The translations under genes were made by a program, and so were the position numbers. The notes below the pieces were generated by a model. It did no database searches, was not told the DNA's origin, and worked only from the letters and a program-made list of their open reading frames with translations. DNA of 16,894 nt from an archaeon. Lineage in GTDB: Archaea; B1Sed10-29; JAJSAI01. This document shows positions 5,512 to 16,679 of the stretch, piece by piece. Position 1 is the first letter of the stretch; every line of letters starts with the position of its first letter. The stretch is from NCBI GenBank assembly GCA_024274695.1, contig JAJSAI010000003.1:1-16894 (forward strand), given 5' to 3'.

Positions 5512-6183
5512 TCACGCTCTTATTTCGGTGTCAGCAGCTCCTTTGACAATGGTCTTGAACTCGTACAGGGTGTCTATGGAGTGGGGTTTCGCGTGCTTCA
5601 TCTGGTAGCTTGTCTCGGGCCTGAACTGTTGTATGTAGTACTTTCTGGCTCCTCTCACGAGCTCCCTGATTTTCATGAAGTCCTCTTTCCCTAGCTCTGG
5701 GTAGGCGGTGGTCCTGAACTCGTACGCGATCCCTGACTCTCTGATTATTTTCATGGTCTCGAGTATCTTGCTCGTGTCCACGTGCACTTGGGTTATTTCA
5801 TCATACTTTTCCAGGGGGCCTTTCACGTCCATGGCAATGTAGTCCACGACCCCTTCTTCTATTGCTTTTTTCACGACCTCTGGGTTGGACCCGTTCGTGT
5901 CCAGTTTGATCTTGTATCCTATGCTCTTGAGTTTTTTCATGAACGGGATCAGGTCAGGCTGGAGGGTGGGCTCTCCGCCCGTGATGCACACAGCGGTCGC
6001 GATCTTTTTCCTGTGCTCCAGTTCTTCCAGGAGTTCCTGCTCGTCGTAGGCTTGGTTCAGGTTGAACAGGAATGGGTTGTGGCAGTACTTGCACCTGAAG
6101 TTGCATCCCACGGTCGCGATGGTTATCGCGACTTCTCCGGGATAGTCTATAAGGCTTGTCCACTGCACTCCTCCAATCTTCAT
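5512..6183 (-). CDS. nrdG: Anaerobic ribonucleotide reductase activating enzyme (radical SAM)
   Basis: SLIDYPG, GCNFRCKYCHN, ITGGEPTLQ, KLDTNGS, DYIAMDVK, YEFRTT motifs; directly downstream of nrdD. Confidence 0.93.
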   Translation of the reverse strand: MKIGGVQWTSLIDYPGEVAITIATVGCNFRCKYCHNPFLFNLNQAYDEQELLEELEHRKKIATAVCITGGEPTLQPDLIPFMKKLKSIGYKIKLDTNGSNPEVVKKAIEEGVVDYIAMDVKGPLEKYDEITQVHVDTSKILETMKIIRESGIAYEFRTTAYPELGKEDFMKIRELVRGARKYYIQQFRPETSYQMKHAKPHSIDTLYEFKTIVKGAADTEIRA

Positions 6184-6189
6184 CCTGTA

Positions 6190-8316
6190 TCATCCTCCTT
6201 TGTTCGCGGGAATTTCGAACGCTTTCCTCTGCGCGAATTCAGCCTGTTTCCCGTCGTTCCACTGTTGTACTGGTCTTATGTACCCCACGATCCTGGAGTA
6301 CACTTCTGTCCTGGCCCCGCACTCCGGGCACTTGAAGTGTTCTCCTGCGATGTACCCGTGGCTCGGGCACACGCTGAATGTGGGGCTGATCGTGTAGTAC
6401 GGGAGCCTGTAGTTTTCTGCGATCGTCCTCACGAGCTTTTTGGAGGAATCTGGGTTGGGAAGCCTTTCTCCAACGAACACGTGAAGCACTGTTCCTCCAG
6501 TGTACTTGGTCTGCAGTTCGTCCTGCAGTTCCAGGGCCCTGAACAGGTCGCTGGTGGCGTACACTGGGAGCTGGGATGAGTTCGTGTGGTACGGTTCTGC
6601 GCCTTTCTTCCACTCGTTCTCGTTCGCTACTACCAGTTTGGGATAGTATTTCTTGTTCAGTCTGGCGAGCCTGTAGGATGTTCCTTCTGCAGGGGTTGCC
6701 TCGAGGTTGTACATGTTTCCTGTGGCTTCCTGGTAGTCTGCCAGCCTGTCCCTCATGAAGTCAAGTGTCTTTCCAGCGAGTTTTATTGCTTCTTTGTCGG
6801 TCAGGTCTTTTCCTATGAGGTTTAGCATGGCCTCGTTCATGCCCACGAGCCCGATTGTGCTGAAGTGGTTTGACCAGTACTCTCCTGTGGCCTCCTTTAT
6901 CTTCCTCAGGTAGAATTTCGAGTACGGGTACAGTCCTTTCTCGGTGAACCTTTCTATGACCTTCCGTTTTATTTCCAGGGATTTCATGGCAAGGTCCATC
7001 ATGTCCCCTATCATTTCCAGGAACTCGGTCTCGCTCTCGGCAAGGTACCCGTACCTCGGGAGGTTGAGGGTGACGACCCCGATGGATCCTGTGAGGGGGT
7101 CTGCCCCGAACAGGCCTCCCCCTCTTTTTTTGAGCTCTCTCTTGTCAAGCCTTAGTCTGCAGCACATGCTCCTGGCGTCGTCCGGTCTCATGTCAGAATT
7201 AACGAAGTTGGCGAAGTAGGGGATGCCGTACTTTGCGGTCATTTCCCAGAGCGGGTCAAGGTCAGGGTTGTTCCAGTCAAAGTCTTTTGTTATGTTATAA
7301 GTTGGGATGGGGAAGGTGAACGGCCTGCCCTTGGCGTCCCCTTCTATCATGAGTTCTGCGAACGCCTTGTTTATCATGTTCATTTCTTCCTGGTAGTCCC
7401 CGTACGCGGTGTCCAGGAACTTGCCTCCTAGGATTGCGGGAATGTTCTTCAGGTTCTCAGGAGGCTCCAGGTCCATGGTTATGTTGGTGAAGGGAGTCTG
7501 GAATCCCACTCTTGTGGGCACGTTCACGTTGTACAAGAACTCCTGCAGGGCCTGTTTTACCTGCTTGTAGTTCAGGCCGTCTCCCCTGACGAACGGGGCT
7601 AGGAGCGTGTCAAAATTGCTCACGGCCTGGGCGCCTGCTGCTTCTCCTTGCAGGGTGTAAAAGAAGTTGACCAGCTGGCCGAGGGCGCTTCTCAGGTGCT
7701 TGGCGGGCTTGGTTTCAACCTTGCCGGGGACCCCCTTGAACCCTGTTATCAGGAGGTCCTGCAGGTCCCAGCCCACGCAGTAGGCCCCAAGGATGCTTAG
7801 ATCATGAATGTGGAAGTCCCCGGTCTCATGGGCCTTGGCCATTTCCGGGGAGTAAATCTTGTTCAGCCAGTAGTTTTTCACCACGATCCCGGAAATGTGG
7901 AAGTTGAGCCCCTGCAGGGAGAACGTCATGTTGCTGTTTTCTCTGACCCTCCAGTCGTTCTCGTTAATATAGTCGTCTATTATCTTGACGTCCTTGAATA
8001 TCCCCGCGAATTCTCTGATGTTCTGGTGCTGTTTCCGGTAGAGGATGTACGCTTTGGCTAGTAGGGTGTGCCCTGCCTTGACGAGCACGTCTTCCACCAC
8101 GTCCTGGATTTCTTCCACGTCCACTACCCTGCCGGGCGGGTACTTTTGGTTAAGTTCCAGGATCACCTTGTCTGAGAGGGCTTTCGGGTCCTGGTCCCCA
8201 TTAACTGCCTTGACTGCCGCGGCTATCGCGTTGGTTATCCTGTTCTGGTCAAACTCTACTATCTTCCCATCCCTTTTCCGGACAAAATTAACGTGATTCT
8301 CGATCTTTTCTGCCAC
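6190..8316 (-). CDS. nrdD: Class III anaerobic ribonucleoside-triphosphate reductase with N-terminal ATP-cone
   Basis: ATP-cone VRKRDGKIVEFD, HIHDL, SMCCRL finger loop, EATPAEG, Zn-ribbon CPSHG..CPECG, glycyl-radical loop SRIVGY. Start is probably GTG 8316 (6 nt after GGAGGT) rather than 8367; ATG 8322 is an alternative. Confidence 0.96.
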   Translation of the reverse strand: MAEKIENHVNFVRKRDGKIVEFDQNRITNAIAAAVKAVNGDQDPKALSDKVILELNQKYPPGRVVDVEEIQDVVEDVLVKAGHTLLAKAYILYRKQHQNIREFAGIFKDVKIIDDYINENDWRVRENSNMTFSLQGLNFHISGIVVKNYWLNKIYSPEMAKAHETGDFHIHDLSILGAYCVGWDLQDLLITGFKGVPGKVETKPAKHLRSALGQLVNFFYTLQGEAAGAQAVSNFDTLLAPFVRGDGLNYKQVKQALQEFLYNVNVPTRVGFQTPFTNITMDLEPPENLKNIPAILGGKFLDTAYGDYQEEMNMINKAFAELMIEGDAKGRPFTFPIPTYNITKDFDWNNPDLDPLWEMTAKYGIPYFANFVNSDMRPDDARSMCCRLRLDKRELKKRGGGLFGADPLTGSIGVVTLNLPRYGYLAESETEFLEMIGDMMDLAMKSLEIKRKVIERFTEKGLYPYSKFYLRKIKEATGEYWSNHFSTIGLVGMNEAMLNLIGKDLTDKEAIKLAGKTLDFMRDRLADYQEATGNMYNLEATPAEGTSYRLARLNKKYYPKLVVANENEWKKGAEPYHTNSSQLPVYATSDLFRALELQDELQTKYTGGTVLHVFVGERLPNPDSSKKLVRTIAENYRLPYYTISPTFSVCPSHGYIAGEHFKCPECGARTEVYSRIVGYIRPVQQWNDGKQAEFAQRKAFEIPANKGG

Positions 8317-8492
8317 GAGCATACCTCCTATCAGTTCTTCTAACCAGTCTGGCCCCGGCAGGGGCATAATAGAAAGAGACCTTTAGTTCTTATATTCTTC
8401 GGTTAAAACTCCGAACAAAAAAGATTTTGTTGGTTAGAATGCAATAAGTTTGGCTGATTAAGTTCATCACACGCCCTGCCCGCAGGGCCTGG

Positions 8493-10883: not shown

Positions 10884-13073
10884 ATGAACAGCACGCTCAA
10901 ACTCTTCTTGGCGCTTTCGCTGGCCATGGCCAACGCGCTCGCGTTCCAGGAGGATTTCTCAAGCTGGAGTCAGGGCACTCCTGCTGGCTGGAGCAAGCCA
11001 TACTACCAGGAAGGAGACTGGAGCCAGTACAACGAGAGCGGACTGTACTACCTGTGGCTCCTGGACAACAGCACAGCCACAGACTATGCATTGATGCATG
11101 ACTTCCCCTACACTCCCAGCGATTCCTTCGTGATCCAAGCGCGGGCCAGGCATCTGGCAGGGTACAAAGGAATAATCTTCATGCTCCCTGATTTCAAGAT
11201 CTCCCTATCATTCCAGGAAATGGAAAACGCAGGGGTTGACGTGAGCAAGTGGCATGAGTACACTGTCGTGTACAACGGGAGCAGTTACAACGTTTACGTG
11301 GACGGGAGAAAACTGAAGACGAAGAACCTGGAAACGCCAATGACCGGGAACCCGGACTACAATGGGAAGATATGGGTATTGTACTCGACCACCTCCGCGG
11401 AATCAGAGGCCCTGATGGACTACATCCTGTGGGAAAAGGCAGAAGACTGGAACGGCCTGTTCCTCGAGCCAGACTGTTCCGCGCAGCCTGACGAGAACGG
11501 GTACGTGAAACTAAGCGCCCGGACGGGCTGGCTTGCTCCAGACGGGAACGTTTACTGCAACAAGGTCAGGGTGACCGCCGCAGGCCAGGATCTCAAGAAA
11601 ACAAGCCCTGAATGTGTGCTCTCGAGGTACGTTTTCCTTCCTGCGGGAGGAGTTGTTGACTTCACGGCATCCTCTGACTCAGGAGGCGAGAAAACCGTCT
11701 CCTGCTATTATCCTCCCTCGCCCGCGAGCTTTTCAGTGGACATCCTGTCCCCCCAGGACGGGGCAGTGCTCCTCCCAGGCCAGGCGAGCGTGAAGGCGTT
11801 CTTGTACCTATCAGGAGAAAAACTCTACTCCGGAACAGCAGTTGTAACGGTCTACGACTCCCAGGGGAACGCGGTAGAGTCAAAAGAGCTTGACAGGAAA
11901 CTCGGGACATTCATAGGCACAGTATCCCTCTCCGAAGGAGAGTACACCCTCACGGTAACAGGAGAGTACGAGGGGCTCTCTGCGAACGCTAGCGTGAGGG
12001 TCACGGTCTCCAGCACTCAGACCAACGCCACCACGCAGCCTGGCGTCACCGCAGGCAATTGGACCGTGGACGTGATAACCCCAAGGCCAAGGGAAATAAG
12101 GCCAGGTATTGTCCCCGTGCAGGTCAAGCTCACTAACCCTGAAGGCTTTAGGACCACCAAACCAGACCTTGAACTGACCGTTTACAGGGACGGGGAAGTG
12201 CAGGAGCAGAAGAAAATGCAGAAGGGCCCGTACACTTACTTCACGACCATCAACGCCACGCTCCCAGGATCCTATTCCTTCGGGTTCACTGTGGTCTCTG
12301 ATGGGGTCACAGTCCAGATTGGCACAACACCAGAAAAAGCAGTCAACGTTACAGGCCCGAGCCCCTACAACGCGACCCCAGGCAAGCTGAGAATAGACAT
12401 TTTCAGCCCCAGGCCTGACGTGTACGCGCTTAATTCCACCATAATGGTCCGGGCCACGGTCTACTACGAGGACCAGATAACAGGAAACGCGAGGGTGAGG
12501 CTCTATTTCATGGGCCAAGAGCACAACATGTCGTACGAGGAAGGAGACTATGTCTACCCCCTTCCACTGCTCGAGGAAGGAGATTACTCCGTCAAGATCT
12601 TCGCGGACTACAACGGGTACACCGCCACCGAGGGAGTGGACTTCCAGGTAAGCAGCCACTACCTCACGATAGAAATCGTGTCACCAAGGGCCCAAGAGTA
12701 CGTTGACCAGGGAGACAAGATCCCCTTGAAGGTCAACGTGTACGACGAGAAGGGAGACCCTGTCATCGGAGCGTTCGTGACAGCAGACCTTGTGGAGGCC
12801 GACGGCCGGACGCACACCTTCCAGTTGTACCAGTCCGCGGCCACCAAGACATACTCCACAGTGTTCTATCCTAACGTGGAAGGAGTCCAGAGGATAACCT
12901 TCACCGCCTCAAAGCCAGGCTACGTGCCCGCGGCAGAAGACTACAAGTTCGAGGTCATCATGAAAGAAAAAGAAGTCCTGCCCGTGGAAGTGGACATCAG
13001 CACAATATACCTGGTGATAGGAATCGTGGCCCTGCTCATACTGATAGCAGCGCTGGTCAAGCTCGTGCTATAG
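10884..13073 (+). CDS. Large cell-surface glycoprotein: ConA/LamG-like domain, Ig-like repeats, C-terminal TM anchor
   Basis: Signal peptide ending ALA-F; FQEDFS...KWHEYTVVY...VYVDG...MDYI lectin-fold pattern; four repeats starting V/I-D/E-I/V-x-S/T-P (DILSP, DVITP, DIFSP, EIVSP); hydrophobic C-terminus. Confidence 0.8.
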   Translation: MNSTLKLFLALSLAMANALAFQEDFSSWSQGTPAGWSKPYYQEGDWSQYNESGLYYLWLLDNSTATDYALMHDFPYTPSDSFVIQARARHLAGYKGIIFMLPDFKISLSFQEMENAGVDVSKWHEYTVVYNGSSYNVYVDGRKLKTKNLETPMTGNPDYNGKIWVLYSTTSAESEALMDYILWEKAEDWNGLFLEPDCSAQPDENGYVKLSARTGWLAPDGNVYCNKVRVTAAGQDLKKTSPECVLSRYVFLPAGGVVDFTASSDSGGEKTVSCYYPPSPASFSVDILSPQDGAVLLPGQASVKAFLYLSGEKLYSGTAVVTVYDSQGNAVESKELDRKLGTFIGTVSLSEGEYTLTVTGEYEGLSANASVRVTVSSTQTNATTQPGVTAGNWTVDVITPRPREIRPGIVPVQVKLTNPEGFRTTKPDLELTVYRDGEVQEQKKMQKGPYTYFTTINATLPGSYSFGFTVVSDGVTVQIGTTPEKAVNVTGPSPYNATPGKLRIDIFSPRPDVYALNSTIMVRATVYYEDQITGNARVRLYFMGQEHNMSYEEGDYVYPLPLLEEGDYSVKIFADYNGYTATEGVDFQVSSHYLTIEIVSPRAQEYVDQGDKIPLKVNVYDEKGDPVIGAFVTADLVEADGRTHTFQLYQSAATKTYSTVFYPNVEGVQRITFTASKPGYVPAAEDYKFEVIMKEKEVLPVEVDISTIYLVIGIVALLILIAALVKLVL

Positions 13074-13079
13074 AAACAA

Positions 13080-14612
13080 CCTTTTAGCGGTTTATTCTGG
13101 TTGCAAAACCCTTTCATCTCCCTTTAATATCTAGTTCTTTTCATGAAAGTAACGGATCTAAAGGGATTTAAAAATAAATATCCTATTTTAGGGGAAGAGT
13201 ATGTTTTGCTAAGGGAACCTACAGTTGGAATAATTTATTCCCATAAAAGAGCAGAGAGTGTAGCAGAACTTAATCCCCCCTTATTTTTTATATTAAGCAG
13301 ATGTCAAGGCAAACAAACGTTCGAAGATATTTTTGAAGAGTATATGAAGGTGTTTGGTGTAAAAAACAAAAGAACTGCATTAGAAAAAGTAAGTTTAACT
13401 TTACTTACTCTTTCTGGAGAGGGGATCATTTCTTTTAGAACATGTCCTACAGAAGCTTCTCCAGATCAGTTCAGGATAACTAAAAATTTTAATTTGTATT
13501 CTGTAAACATTGAAATTACCAGAGCGTGCAACCTCCGTTGCAGACACTGCTTTAATAACTCTGGCAATCCCATGCCAGATGAACTTACTACTCGCGAATG
13601 GATAAAAGTGCTGGATATTCTTAAGAAAAAAAGGGTTCTCTCTTTGACATTTACAGGAGAGCCCTTTGCCAGAGAAGACTTTATTGAAATTCTGGCTTAT
13701 GCAGCCTCAAACTTTGATGTATATTTAATGACAAACGGAACAGTTATTGGCGATGATGACTGGTTTAATTCATTAAGTGATAAACAAATAGAAGCATTAA
13801 AAAAAGTAAAAACATTTCAGATATCATTAGATTCGCCAGCTCCCGAGATAAATGATAAGTATAGAGGTAGAGGGTGTTACCAGAAAGTAATCTCTGCGTT
13901 GGAGAGAATAAAGGAATGGGATTCTTTTATTATAATTTCATCAACTATAACCCAAGAAAATAAGCATATGATTCGGGATATGGAAAGATTAGCTGCAAAG
14001 TATAATGCTAGATTAACCTTTGGTGCTTTAGAGTACAGGGGACGGGCAGTTTCACCTGAATTTAAAAACCTTCTTTTAGACGAGACGATAAAAATAGAGG
14101 GGTTAGAAAACAAGCCAGTATATAGTATTCCAAAAGGTGCTACAACGGCATGGTGTAATATGATAAAAGGATATTATACTATAAGACCTAATGGTTACAT
14201 AAAACCTTGTTTAATGCCAGATGATATGTTTGCGGAGTTGGACCCGCGGCTTTATAATTCGGTATCTATCTTTGAACTAGAGAATAAAAGCATTTAAGAA
14301 ACAGAATTTTTTAAGTTGATAAAAGTTCCTTTTCAGTTTATTCCGACAAAAGAGACATGTAAGAAGTGCAAGTATTTGGAAGGCGTCTGTAGAGATTGCG
14401 GACTAGCTCCTTATTATATGAGTTTAAAAAATAAATGTATGAATTGGAGGTGAGGTTTCTATGGATGTGTTTCCGAAGATAATTTGGACCGATGGGAGAA
14501 TTACTGACAGAAATTTGGTAGTAAGGTCAGAATGCGGAAATAAGCCTTGTCATGGTGGTTGCAGTGCCGGAGATTTAGAATTCATCTTCCAAAAAATGGG
14601 TGAAAGGAAATA
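13080..14612. other. AT-rich island, probably horizontally acquired
   Basis: About 30-35% GC by eye (18/60 in line 13141) with A/T-ending codons, against roughly 50% or more GC in flanking genes. Confidence 0.75.
13143..14453 (+). CDS. RRE(PqqD-like)-radical SAM-SPASM peptide maturase, interrupted by one in-frame TAA at 14295-14297
   Basis: N-terminal ELNPPLFFILSRCQGKQTFEDI PqqD-like segment, CNLRCRHC, TNG, QISLDS, and C..I.PNG.IKPC. The same frame continues 51 codons past the TAA: ETEFFKLIKVPFQFIPTKETCKKCKYLEGVCRDCGLAPYYMSLKNKCMNWR, ending at TGA 14451-14453. Confidence 0.88.
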
Positions 14613-14613
14613 A
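14461..14613 (+). CDS. 50-aa Cys-containing peptide, candidate RiPP precursor (MDVFPKIIWTDGRITDRNLVVRSECGNKPCHGGCSAGDLEFIFQKMGERK)
   Basis: Manual translation. GGAGGTGA Shine-Dalgarno overlaps the maturase's distal stop, the ORF fills the gap exactly, and its stop overlaps the next start (TAATG). Confidence 0.75.
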   Translation: MDVFPKIIWTDGRITDRNLVVRSECGNKPCHGGCSAGDLEFIFQKMGERK

Positions 14614-15635
14614 TGGTAACATTAAAAGGGATCCCGGCTAGTCCGGGAATTTTTGAAGGGGATGCGGTCAAGTTTTCAGGAGAGGAGAGCGCGGAGAAGG
14701 TGGACAAGCGCAAGGTTCTTGTTGGGAAGAAATTCTGGCCGGATCACACGCAGATCTTGACGAAGGCAGGGGCAATCGTGGTTGAAAAGGGAGGGCTGCT
14801 CTCTCACGCGGCGATCATAGCAAGAGAATTCGGGATACCCTGCGTCGTGGGGGTAGAAGGGATTTCACAGCTGGTGAAAGACGGGCAGGTAATCAGGGTC
14901 AATGGAGACGAGGGCACGGTAGAGGTTCCTGGAGGAAGGCAGGTTGAATCTTGGGAGGGTCCAGAGTACATCTACTATAATCTGGAGAACTTAAGGGACG
15001 AGGTGGTTAACAGTACACCCGTGGTTTATGAAGAGTATGATGGAAAAGTATACGTGTATTTTGACTACAAAACCGAGAAGAGTGAACGGGAGAAAGTGCT
15101 CAGAATACTGCGGAAACGCTTTGACGGAAAGCAGGTGGTGGCTGGCAGGGCAAAGCCTCCTGCAATAACCCCTGAAAAATACTACATTTACTTCTTTTTC
15201 AAGCAGGCCATGGAAAACCCTGAGTTCAGGGAGATGTTTTTTGAAGCAAGAAAAGCCGCTGATAATCCTGATCCTCAGGTGATCTCTGCCCTGGCTGAAA
15301 AGGCCTTGAAAAATGCTGTGAAGTACTATCTGAAAGCTGCTGAGATGGGGTCCGAAAAACTGCTTGTTCTTGCAGGAGAGTACGAGTCCACGATTTGCCA
15401 TGAATACTTGGCCAAGAAAGCCTTTAAGAAGCTCCGGGAAACAGTGGGACTGACTAGAATAAGAGAGATAGCGTTGAAGGTAGACAGGGGAGAAGAGTGT
15501 GTGAGCAAGGAGTGCAGACTGTACAAGCTGTTCAAGCGCCTGCTCAATACTCCGGACGAAAAAATAACCTTCTACGGGGTCTCCTTGGCAGAAGCCAAGC
15601 GCAGGGCCAAGGAAAGCGTGGGCAGGCAGTCATGA
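14613..15635 (+). CDS. PEP-utilising enzyme mobile (phosphohistidine) domain fused to an unknown C-terminal domain
   Basis: LKGIPASPG..EG, AGAIVVEKGGLLSHAAIIAREFGIPCVVG, VNGDEGTV. The remaining roughly 230 aa are unrecognised and largely helical. Confidence 0.85.
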   Translation: MVTLKGIPASPGIFEGDAVKFSGEESAEKVDKRKVLVGKKFWPDHTQILTKAGAIVVEKGGLLSHAAIIAREFGIPCVVGVEGISQLVKDGQVIRVNGDEGTVEVPGGRQVESWEGPEYIYYNLENLRDEVVNSTPVVYEEYDGKVYVYFDYKTEKSEREKVLRILRKRFDGKQVVAGRAKPPAITPEKYYIYFFFKQAMENPEFREMFFEARKAADNPDPQVISALAEKALKNAVKYYLKAAEMGSEKLLVLAGEYESTICHEYLAKKAFKKLRETVGLTRIREIALKVDRGEECVSKECRLYKLFKRLLNTPDEKITFYGVSLAEAKRRAKESVGRQS

Positions 15636-16679
15636 CAGGCTGAGCACGATCTCCCTGACCTCTTCGAACCCTGCGTTGGTCAGGATCCCCTTCCCGGTGA
15701 AAGGAGATTTCACGGCCCTGAAGCCCTTTTCCCGTAGCGCGCGTATGACCTTCTCCGTTTTGGGAGCGCAGATCTTGTTCTTTTTTGCCAGGTAGTGCAG
15801 GTCAATGTAAGGGTCTTTGAAGTCAAGGTCTTCCCAGAGTTTTCCGAGATAAGTGGGGCCTATTATTTCAAGCCTGCTCCCGCACACGGGGCATTTCTCC
15901 TGCCAGGACAGGCCCGCGTACGGAACGCGTTTCCGGTAGTCGCACTTTTGACAGTACTCGTAGTACCCCACATCCCTTTTCAGGGCCCTGCTCGAGGTCT
16001 TGGCCCAGCCGACGTGCACCGCGAAAACCCTGTAGTAGTGCTGGCGCGCGTACGCGTAAAACGGTAACAGACAAGCGTCTTCTTTCATTCCTTCCCTGAG
16101 GACGGCGTACGCAAGGTTTCTGACGCCAAGTTCTGGGTAGAAGCTGGTCTTGACTCCTCTGACCCCGTACCTCCTGAGCAGGACCTCTGGGAAGGTGGCG
16201 CTCAGGGCTCCCGTGTCAGTGGCAGTGGCAAAGATCATGCTCCCCTTTCCCTTCAGGCTATTTACCGCGGCGGGCAGGAAAGAAATAGGGGAGCCGAAGG
16301 GGTCTATGTCAACCACGTCAAAAGGCCTTTCCTCTAAGAGGAATACTCTCGCGTCCCTGCGGAACACTCTCACGTTAGCATTGTTTATTTCCGCGTTCTT
16401 TTTCATCAGCTCTACCGCCAGGGGGTTGTGATCGTTAGCGTAGACTTCTGCTCCTGCTTCCACAGCGTACCTGACTGCTCTTGCTCCCGTGCCTGACAGG
16501 CAGTCCGCCACCCTGTACTCTCTGCCTTCCCACTTGGCTTTCAGCAGGGACACTGAAATATCCCTGTCTTCCTCCATCACGGGGTTGTAGAAAACGGGGG
16601 CGTCGTACTTGCTGCCGTACTTCTCGGGATCCGGAACGAAAAGGATAACCCTGCCCTCTTTCCTTTTGGTGAGCTTCAT
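15630..16679 (-). CDS. trm1: tRNA (guanine-26-N2)-dimethyltransferase
   Basis: VFYNPVMEEDRD, DCLSGTGARAVRY, DIDPFGSP, TATD, ELGVRNL, HYYRVF, CxxC..CPVCG, GPTYLG motifs. Confidence 0.95.
   Translation of the reverse strand: MKLTKRKEGRVILFVPDPEKYGSKYDAPVFYNPVMEEDRDISVSLLKAKWEGREYRVADCLSGTGARAVRYAVEAGAEVYANDHNPLAVELMKKNAEINNANVRVFRRDARVFLLEERPFDVVDIDPFGSPISFLPAAVNSLKGKGSMIFATATDTGALSATFPEVLLRRYGVRGVKTSFYPELGVRNLAYAVLREGMKEDACLLPFYAYARQHYYRVFAVHVGWAKTSSRALKRDVGYYEYCQKCDYRKRVPYAGLSWQEKCPVCGSRLEIIGPTYLGKLWEDLDFKDPYIDLHYLAKKNKICAPKTEKVIRALREKGFRAVKSPFTGKGILTNAGFEEVREIVLSLS

What the first reader, a model, noticed from the sequence alone, without database searches (positions are those of the whole stretch)
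13143..15635. Candidate archaeal RiPP system: RRE-rSAM-SPASM maturase, hidden Cys peptide and phosphohistidine-domain protein
Seen: three tightly coupled genes (Shine-Dalgarno overlapping the maturase stop; TAATG overlap). The first two lie in an AT-rich island, and the 50-aa peptide, missed by the ORF track, carries C-x4-C-x3-C (CGNKPCHGGC) after a 24-aa leader-like segment. Known: PqqD/RRE plus SPASM radical SAM enzymes modify adjacent peptides (sactipeptides, ranthipeptides, cyclophanes), and the SHAAIIARE His is the phosphocarrier of PEP-utilising enzymes. Inferred: a thioether-crosslinked and possibly phosphorylated peptide. I do not recognise this combination as a described family. No transporter or protease is visible in the cluster, and the peptide keeps a 16-aa tail after the last Cys.
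Basis: partly seen in the sequence, partly recalled or inferred. Interest (0 to 1): 0.85.

Follow-up and report, generated by a model that had tools for sequence, protein, structure and literature searches.

The report
Archaeal peptide-modifying cassette with phosphohistidine partner
A small archaeon carries a rare three-gene cassette (a radical SAM peptide-modifying enzyme, here broken by a stop codon, a hidden 50-residue cysteine peptide and a phosphohistidine-domain protein), and pairing of such enzymes with phosphohistidine domains recurs across its relatives.

Summary
Window 13143-15635 holds an RRE-radical SAM-SPASM gene (in-frame TAA at 14295-14297), a 50-aa ORF with C-x4-C-x3-C, and a 340-aa protein with a PEP-utiliser swivel domain.

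The same three genes, in the same order and with an intact maturase, occur in one other genome of the order (G008). There the peptide is 43% identical and keeps C..KPC.GGCSA. The congener G001 lacks the cassette: the two flanking genes abut.

The maturase family is tiny. Its best solved relative by sequence and by fold is the RiPP maturase SkfB. More distant clade members also sit next to short Cys peptides.

The window copy looks damaged: TAA is a normal stop in this genome, and one Gly of the GGE motif is missing.

New here: in the 31 genomes of the phylum, 12 of 29 non-dikinase swivel-domain ORFs are adjacent to, or fused with, radical SAM/SPASM genes, usually with a short peptide ORF beside them. 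The carrier His is invariant.

The chemistry (thioether, phosphorylation) is untested. I found no paper describing this pairing. Verdict: a new variant of a known kind; interest 0.68.

The parts
13074..15629 (.). Cassette as an indel relative to the congener G001.
   Evidence: In G001 the trm1 match (C13:7914-8954 +) and the surface-protein match (C13:8953-11118 -) abut. No flanking repeat beyond chance-sized ones and no tRNA in the window.
13143..14294 (+). Radical SAM maturase, first 384 codons: RRE-like N-terminal domain, the CX3CX2C motif (C129, C133, C136), and the first two SPASM cysteines.
   Evidence: PF04055 E 2.6e-22; PqqD only E 0.078. 42% identical to the intact G008 enzyme. 'TFT-GEPF' where 10 of 10 other family members have GG[ED].
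14295..14297 (+). In-frame TAA inside the SPASM domain.
   Evidence: It aligns with a variable position in relatives. TAA ends 120 of 496 long ORFs of this genome.
14298..14453 (+). Continuation of the maturase frame: CX2CX6CX2C, one further Cys, then TGA.
   Evidence: By eye, about 43% identical to the G008 tail, with no frameshift.
14446..14453 (+). Shine-Dalgarno GGAGGTGA overlapping the maturase stop.
   Evidence: G008 has GGAGGT 7 nt before its peptide ATG.
14461..14613 (+). 50-aa candidate precursor peptide with a C-x4-C-x3-C core.
   Evidence: Single copy in the genome.
14613..14927 (+). PEP-utiliser mobile (swivel) domain with carrier His65.
   Evidence: PF00391 E 4.4e-22. Model matches pyruvate kinase C-terminal domain at Z 17.6 and rifampin phosphotransferase His domain at Z 17.2. 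His65 is invariant in 9 of 9 aligned domains.
14928..15635 (+). C-terminal 235-aa domain of unknown family: a small beta/alpha unit followed by a helical bundle.
   Evidence: No Pfam or PDB sequence hit. Model block pLDDT 86-96 for residues 201-330. Only generic helical matches, Z 7.1 or less. Shared with the two G008 proteins and weakly with P0116.
10884..13073 (+). Upstream flank: 729-aa surface-type protein (not part of the cassette).
15630..16679 (-). Downstream flank: trm1 tRNA methyltransferase (not part of the cassette).
   Evidence: PF02005 E 3e-73.

Best explanation
This is a rare, compact RiPP-like cassette of a small (DPANN-type) archaeon.

Proposed mechanism:
1. An SkfB-like enzyme (RRE + radical SAM + SPASM) binds the leader of the adjacent 50-aa peptide (conserved PKI.W and RNL).
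2. It modifies the Cys-rich core C..KPC.GGCSA, most likely by Cys-to-carbon thioether cross-links. This step is inferred.
3. The third protein is a dedicated partner. Its swivel domain keeps the phospho-carrier His, and a private helical domain follows it. Its role (phosphoryl transfer to the peptide or enzyme, or docking and regulation) is inferred.

History of this copy: the cassette sits as an insertion between two housekeeping genes. Its maturase-plus-peptide half is compositionally foreign. The maturase is probably inactivated by a nonsense codon and a deleted Gly in the GGE motif.
For: Conservation of the unit:
- G008 has a 439-aa intact maturase (42% identical), a 48-aa peptide (43%) and a 349-aa swivel protein (about 34-35%), in the same order and tightly spaced, between different neighbours: an RNA ligase-like gene and an FtsJ-like gene.
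- The cassette is absent at the syntenic site of G001.

Enzyme class:
- HMMER against 1.84 billion representatives gives G008 at 897 bits and the window at 723. Eight proteins follow at 200-254 bits, then scores fall away gradually.
- The best PDB chain by sequence is SkfB, E 3.9e-46, covering profile positions 14-344.
- The G008 model (pTM 0.82) aligns to SkfB at Z 25.7 (331 residues, rmsd 3.9, model 20-413). It aligns to SuiB at Z 23.5 (353 residues, rmsd 5.1, model 16-421), N-terminal domain included.
- 4 of 10 family members hit Pfam PqqD, best 1.7e-10.
- Seven SPASM cysteines are invariant or nearly so.

Substrate type: more distant clade members sit beside short Cys peptides (L027, L028, L029, L006).

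Partner link:
- 12 of 29 swivel ORFs under 700 aa in 31 genomes are adjacent to (10) or fused with (2) radical SAM genes.
- His65, A67, R71 and E72 are invariant in 9 of 9 aligned domains.

Damage to this copy.
Against: - No chemistry was tested, and no complex prediction could be run.
- Pfam SPASM is not hit by the window or G008 enzyme; only 1 of 10 members hits it.
- The window's own PqqD hit is below threshold, E 0.078.
- Neither cassette has a protease or transporter gene beside it.
- The peptide core resembles the last SPASM motif (weak hits such as P0327), so a cluster-binding role is conceivable.
- GC3 jumps from 0.37 to 0.58 exactly at the peptide/third-gene junction, so the three genes may not share one history here.
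- G008 has a second copy of the 348-aa protein with no maturase or peptide beside it.
- Only two cassettes are known, so conservation rests on one comparison.
- The TAA could be an assembly error; no reads could be laid.
Confidence: 0.6

Rival explanations
1. The cassette is fully active in this organism. The TAA is a consensus or assembly error in the genome bin, or the enzyme works as two pieces, and the single-Gly GE motif is tolerated.
For: The frame after the stop stays open and about as conserved as the rest, with all five remaining cysteines in place. The peptide and third gene are intact, with good ribosome-binding sites.
Against: TAA is an ordinary stop here, ending 120 of 496 long ORFs and the peptide ORF itself. 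The stop splits the auxiliary-cluster cysteines. A second deviation (GGE) affects a position kept in 10 of 10 relatives.
Confidence: 0.2
2. The small ORF is not a substrate. It is a small cysteine-motif subunit (cluster-binding or adaptor) of the enzyme, and the true substrate is the swivel protein or another molecule.
For: The core resembles the C-terminal SPASM motif (weak hits of the peptide profile to SPASM tails, best E 0.003 among 416 proteins). There is no protease or exporter nearby. The swivel protein is the constant neighbour of such enzymes.
Against: The G008 enzyme already has a full set of seven SPASM cysteines. Three Cys with no conserved fourth ligand: H31 in the window is N in G008. 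Related enzymes have plainly precursor-like peptides beside them. The N-terminal RRE-type domain implies a peptide leader.
Confidence: 0.12
3. The whole island is a decaying remnant of a horizontally acquired element with no present function. The swivel gene's position is historical accident.
For: It is absent from the congener. The maturase half has foreign composition and two lesions. A composition break lies inside the cassette.
Against: The peptide and swivel genes are intact. The same order is kept in G008 at 34-43% identity, which implies long purifying selection on all three. The enzyme-swivel pairing recurs in at least five radical SAM lineages, including two fusions.
Confidence: 0.08

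Closest known systems
SkfB/SkfA (sporulation killing factor maturase; PDB 6efn, 'Structure of a RiPP maturase, SkfB')
   Same: Best sequence and fold match, N-terminal peptide-binding domain included (E 3.9e-46; Z 25.7). A short Cys-bearing peptide is encoded next to the enzyme.
   Different: NCBIfam rSAM_skfB scores 80.2 bits against a cut-off of 300, and only about 21-24% identity. Here there are seven SPASM-type cysteines, whereas I recall SkfB having a shorter twitch-type domain (recalled, not tested). The peptide lies downstream, the host is archaeal, there is a swivel-domain partner, and there are no export or immunity genes.
SuiB and CteB type RRE-radical SAM-SPASM maturases (PDB 5v1q, 5why)
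   Same: Same three-domain plan. The SuiB alignment spans model residues 14-421 at Z 23.3-23.5. CteB's entry title concerns thioether formation in sactipeptides.
   Different: 17-21% identity. The second cysteine motif is CX2CX6CX2C rather than the usual spacing (usual spacing recalled). Pfam SPASM is not hit.
CrpC/CrpA of Methanococcus voltae (PMC13692751; abstract and section 8 read)
   Same: An archaeal SPASM radical SAM enzyme with a predicted RRE that installs thioether (ranthionine) links on a neighbouring Cys-rich product.
   Different: According to the paper, CrpA is a large repeat protein and CrpC belongs to TIGR04463. That family is not among the best 25 NCBIfam hits here. The paper describes no swivel-domain partner in the parts I read.
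PEP synthase, pyruvate phosphate dikinase and rifampin phosphotransferase (swivelling phosphohistidine enzymes)
   Same: The swivel domain, with the carrier His and flanking A, R and E.
   Different: No ATP-grasp and no PEP/pyruvate domain in the protein. Each of four genomes checked has a single ATP-grasp domain, inside its PEP synthase. The C-terminal domain is private. An Atlas lead to the Rph fourth domain (0.88-0.89) was not borne out by profile comparison (probability 0.1).
Subtilosin A homologues in Thermococcus (bioRxiv 10.64898/2026.07.27.741052; passages read)
   Same: A sactipeptide-type three-Cys peptide with a radical SAM maturase in archaea.
   Different: According to the paper, those are recognisable sboA/albA homologues with transporter genes. 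The peptide here has no detectable relative besides G008.

Membership tests
RRE-radical SAM-SPASM peptide maturases | CX3CX2C radical SAM cluster motif and radical SAM core. | tested here: met
   C129, C133, C136; PF04055 E 2.6e-22.
RRE-radical SAM-SPASM peptide maturases | GGE-type SAM-binding motif. | tested here: not met
   The window has TFT-GEPF. G008 and the 9 other aligned members have GG[ED]. The motif's role is recalled.
RRE-radical SAM-SPASM peptide maturases | N-terminal RRE (PqqD-like) domain. | tested here: inconclusive
   The window's PqqD hit is E 0.078, below the cut-off. 4 of 10 family members hit PqqD, best 1.7e-10. The G008 model has four strands then three helices at residues 15-83 and aligns with the N-terminal domains of SkfB and SuiB. 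So the feature is met for the family and holds for the window only by homology.
RRE-radical SAM-SPASM peptide maturases | SPASM domain with seven auxiliary-cluster cysteines. | tested here: inconclusive
   Seven cysteines are conserved in the family and present in the window only across the TAA. Pfam SPASM is hit by 1 of 10 members and not by the window or G008.
RRE-radical SAM-SPASM peptide maturases | Adjacent precursor peptide. | tested here: met
   Conserved 50-aa and 48-aa ORFs.
SkfB equivalog (TIGR04403) | Score above the curated cut-off. | tested here: not met
   80.2 bits against 300.
Sactipeptides / ranthipeptides | Cys sulfur to alpha (or beta/gamma) carbon thioether in the product. 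| not testable with these tools
   Needs mass spectrometry or NMR.
PEP-utilising dikinases | Swivel domain with carrier His. | tested here: met
   PF00391 E 4.4e-22; His65 invariant; Z 17.2-17.6.
PEP-utilising dikinases | ATP-grasp nucleotide domain and PEP/pyruvate domain in the same protein. | tested here: not met
   Only PF00391 is found in the 340-aa protein. The single PPDK_N in the genome is in the 771-aa PEP synthase.
Rifampin phosphotransferase-like (Rph fourth domain, PF27448) | Homology of the C-terminal domain. | tested here: inconclusive
   Atlas feature score 0.88-0.89 for the G008 paralogue. hhalign against 15 PF27448-bearing proteins gives probability 0.1. The Pfam copy held lacks this model.

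The most novel reading that the evidence does not exclude
Stand-alone phosphohistidine swivel domains are a lineage-wide third component of radical SAM/SPASM peptide-modifying systems in these archaea. They would be charged in trans by the cell's single PEP synthase. They would then pass a phosphoryl group to the peptide or the maturase. That would couple radical peptide maturation to a phospho-relay, a tailoring or activation step not known for any RiPP class.
Probability: 0.25. Interest if true: 0.85.

Novelty: new variant of a known kind. Interest (0 to 1): 0.68.

Why it matters
Radical SAM/SPASM maturases with RRE domains are a well-known way of making cross-linked peptides. A phosphohistidine swivel domain as their regular partner is not.

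- I found no paper holding both terms, and no curated family covers the enzyme.
- If the partner transfers phosphate, this would be a new tailoring logic for ribosomal peptides.
- It would also be a first function for the many orphan swivel-domain genes of small-genome archaea.
- The finding shows that genome-reduced archaea keep and exchange peptide-modifying cassettes.
- The intact G008 trio is small enough (about 2.5 kb) for a direct expression test.

Tried and rejected
No co-fold exists.
- The look-up of sequencing runs: none was listed and no RNA holder was listed. The TAA could therefore not be checked on reads, and read laying was not used.
- Atlas look-up of the window protein failed.
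- Supplementary files were not requested. Tables S3/S4 of PMC13692751 may list related enzymes.

**Searches for more cassettes**
- Genome contigs gave only the G008 contig: 1 relative among 62 pattern matches.
- Metagenome contigs used a generic pattern. Of the 80 loci kept from 471, none held the peptide or the swivel gene.
- Viral contigs gave none for either protein.
- Plasmids gave only about 25% identical Firmicutes enzymes.
- 301 genomes of a sister phylum held only swivel-domain-level matches to the 340-aa protein.

**C-terminal domain of the swivel protein**
- No Pfam or PDB sequence hit.
- No homology to the linkers of the fused proteins.
- Foldseek and VIA gave only generic helical bundles.

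**Other**
- PADLOC: only generic radical SAM-core similarity to viperins.
- No meaningful flanking repeats.
- ARAGORN found no tRNA in the window, L022 or L023. My passing guess of a tRNA beside the G008 paralogue is dropped.
- The fused architecture found only itself in the 5.8-billion-protein index.
- The swivel-domain tree was a quick, poorly resolved one: 16 of 31 forks open.
Full report
**Setting.** The window is a whole 16,894-nt contig (C29) of an 825-kb, 32-contig genome rated 91% complete. The one named relative is a 'Nanobdellati archaeon' bin, so this is a small DPANN-type archaeon. Other genes in the window are ordinary: NrdD and its activase, TFB, a GNAT, a cupin protein and trm1.

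- The maturase frame runs 13143-14294, meets TAA at 14295-14297, and continues open to TGA at 14451-14453.
- GGAGGTGA (14446-14453) overlaps that stop, 7 nt before the ATG of a 50-aa ORF at 14461-14613. That ORF's core is CGNKPCHGGC, with 24 residues before it and 16 after.
- Its TAA overlaps the ATG of a 340-aa gene carrying SHAAIIARE.
- Windows between 13001 and 14600 are 34-37% G+C in a 51.4% genome.

**The cassette is conserved once, and is an indel.**
- Among 41 related genomes only G008 (same order, another family) has a close maturase: 42% identity, E 6.9e-87, with the next best at 5.7e-26.
- Directly downstream G008 has a 48-aa ORF and a 349-aa swivel protein.
- The peptides share 20 invariant positions, including P-K-I, W, R-N-L and C..KPC.GGCSA. 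The G008 ORF has its own GGAGGT.
- The G008 maturase is uninterrupted (439 aa).
- The neighbours differ: an RNA ligase-like gene and an FtsJ-like methyltransferase in G008, a surface protein and trm1 here.
- In the congener G001 those two flanking genes abut, so about 2.55 kb is inserted here or lost there.
- No flanking repeats or tRNA mark the ends.

**What the enzyme is.**
- Pfam finds the radical SAM core. NCBIfam gives only sub-threshold hits, best ScmE at 103 bits against a cut-off of 400 and SkfB at 80 against 300.
- An exhaustive profile search of 1.84 billion representatives gives the two cassette enzymes at 897 and 723 bits. Eight proteins follow at 200-254 bits (about 30% identity), after which scores fall away gradually.
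- The family profile's best solved relative is SkfB, E 3.9e-46, from profile position 14 onward.
- The G008 model (pLDDT 78, pTM 0.82) has four strands and three helices before the core.
- It aligns to SkfB at Z 25.7 (rmsd 3.9, 331 residues, model 20-413) and to SuiB at Z 23.5 (rmsd 5.1, 353 residues, model 16-421). Core-only enzymes start near model residue 105 and score 20.7 or less.
- 4 of 10 members hit PqqD.
- Seven late cysteines are conserved, although Pfam SPASM is hit by only 1 of 10 members.
- I therefore accept RRE-radical SAM-SPASM for the family.

**Relatives point to Cys peptides.** These four loci score 217-261 bits to the family profile.
- L027 and L028 have an upstream ORF ending in a Cys-Gly5-Thr-x-Cys core.
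- L029 has two Cys-rich ORFs and an ABC transporter. L006 has two paralogous two-Cys ORFs.
- None of these has a swivel gene.

**This copy looks damaged.**
- TAA ends 120 of 496 long ORFs here, so it is a true stop.
- It falls at a variable alignment column.
- The window alone has one Gly where 10 of 10 relatives have GG[ED].
- The tail after the stop is still about as conserved as the rest, so the lesion is recent or an assembly error. Reads could not be obtained.

**Composition.** GC3 is 0.283 for the maturase (lowest 1% of long ORFs), 0.32 for its tail, 0.37 for the peptide and 0.58 for the swivel gene, against a genome mean of 0.61. The break lies exactly at 14613. I cannot explain it. One possibility is replacement of the maturase-peptide half by a low-GC allele.

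**The third gene.**
- Residues 1-105 are a swivel domain: PF00391, and fold matches at Z 17.6 and 17.2 to the pyruvate kinase C-terminal domain and the rifampin phosphotransferase His domain.
- The remaining 235 residues model confidently as a small beta/alpha unit plus a helical bundle, with no significant relative.
- P0116, a 452-aa metagenomic protein, aligns through residue 238. It carries the end of an ATP-grasp domain before its swivel domain. The support beyond the swivel domain is weak (hhalign probability 12%).
- G008 also has a stand-alone paralogue, 58% identical to its cassette copy.

**A wider pattern.**
- In the 31 genomes held for this phylum, PF00391 gave 70 matches.
- I set aside the 41 that lie in open frames of 700 aa or more (dikinase size). 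That left 29.
- Of these 29, 10 lie next to a radical SAM gene and 2 are fused with one. The fusions are G002:C6 (swivel-radical SAM-SPASM) and G009:C15 (radical SAM-SPASM-swivel).
- The 12 are spread over 7 genomes and several radical SAM lineages that share only core similarity.
- This is a lower bound. Several of the other 17 sit on short contigs, one (G015:C56) was not fetched, and my radical SAM profile may miss divergent genes.
- As a rough estimate of my own: 309 radical SAM matches in about 24 Mb would put a radical SAM gene next to under 1 of 29 random genes.
- The carrier His and three flanking residues are invariant in 9 of 9 aligned domains.
- Each of four genomes checked has one ATP-grasp domain, in its PEP synthase.
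- In six of these loci a short acidic, aromatic-rich ORF lies just upstream of the enzyme. Three share a W-x-D-T-Y-x-D core.

**Literature.** No paper held 'radical SAM' with 'swiveling domain', or with 'PEP-utilizers' and 'archaea'. Broader searches listed only general RiPP and radical SAM work (listings only). I read the abstract and section 8 of PMC13692751 (CrpC/CrpA) and passages of a 2026 preprint on subtilosin homologues in Thermococcus. Neither describes this system.

**Verdict.** A real, very rare RiPP-like cassette whose enzyme class and peptide are well supported. The maturase is probably broken in this genome. The chemistry is untested. The phosphohistidine partner is part of a recurrent and apparently undescribed pairing.

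Noticed in passing
G000:C30 (L024 2056-6699): The same genome holds a tandem of two further pairs: a 606-aa radical SAM gene followed by a 103-aa swivel ORF, then a 69-aa Tyr/Trp/Asp-rich ORF, a 710-aa radical SAM/SPASM gene and a 130-aa swivel ORF.
   Followed up: partly
L138 3551-5414; L142 3012-5309; L123 2843-5125; L134 4883-7278: Modules of short peptide ORF, radical SAM, then swivel ORF. Three of the peptides share a W-x-D-T-Y-x-D core and an M-[KQ]-x-[FW]-x-V start. This looks like a second, commoner peptide family using the same enzyme-partner pair.
   Followed up: partly
L125 467-2434 (G002:C6); L122 3179-4795 (G009:C15): Single ORFs fuse the swivel domain with radical SAM and SPASM, in either order. 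A search of the 5.8-billion-protein index found the fused architecture only in the query's own record.
   Followed up: yes
window 14613: There is a sharp GC3 step (0.37 to 0.58) exactly at the junction of the peptide and swivel genes, inside an otherwise conserved cassette. Unexplained.
   Followed up: partly
L022 7246-8673 (-): A second radical SAM/SPASM gene (382 aa, Pfam SPASM 2e-13) with an 84-aa ORF downstream lies 1.3 kb from the G008 cassette. The 84-aa ORF has no Pfam hit.
   Followed up: no
L027 718-870; L028 662-781; L029 3240-3654; L006 625-954: Short Cys-bearing ORFs, conserved between contigs or paralogous, sit beside more distant relatives of the maturase. L029 also has an ABC transporter.
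   Followed up: partly
L023 4397-5443 (G008:C18): A stand-alone paralogue of the two-domain swivel protein, 58% identical to the cassette copy, has no maturase or peptide nearby.
   Followed up: partly
L138 5407-6809; L122 1732-3179: Two further ORFs (about 255 and 210-230 aa, no Pfam family) follow the swivel gene or fusion in both loci. Their C-terminal ends look alike by eye.
   Followed up: no
window 5512-8367 (-): An anaerobic ribonucleotide reductase NrdD (724 aa) with its radical SAM activase (222 aa). This ordinary radical SAM gene is unrelated to the cassette.
   Followed up: yes
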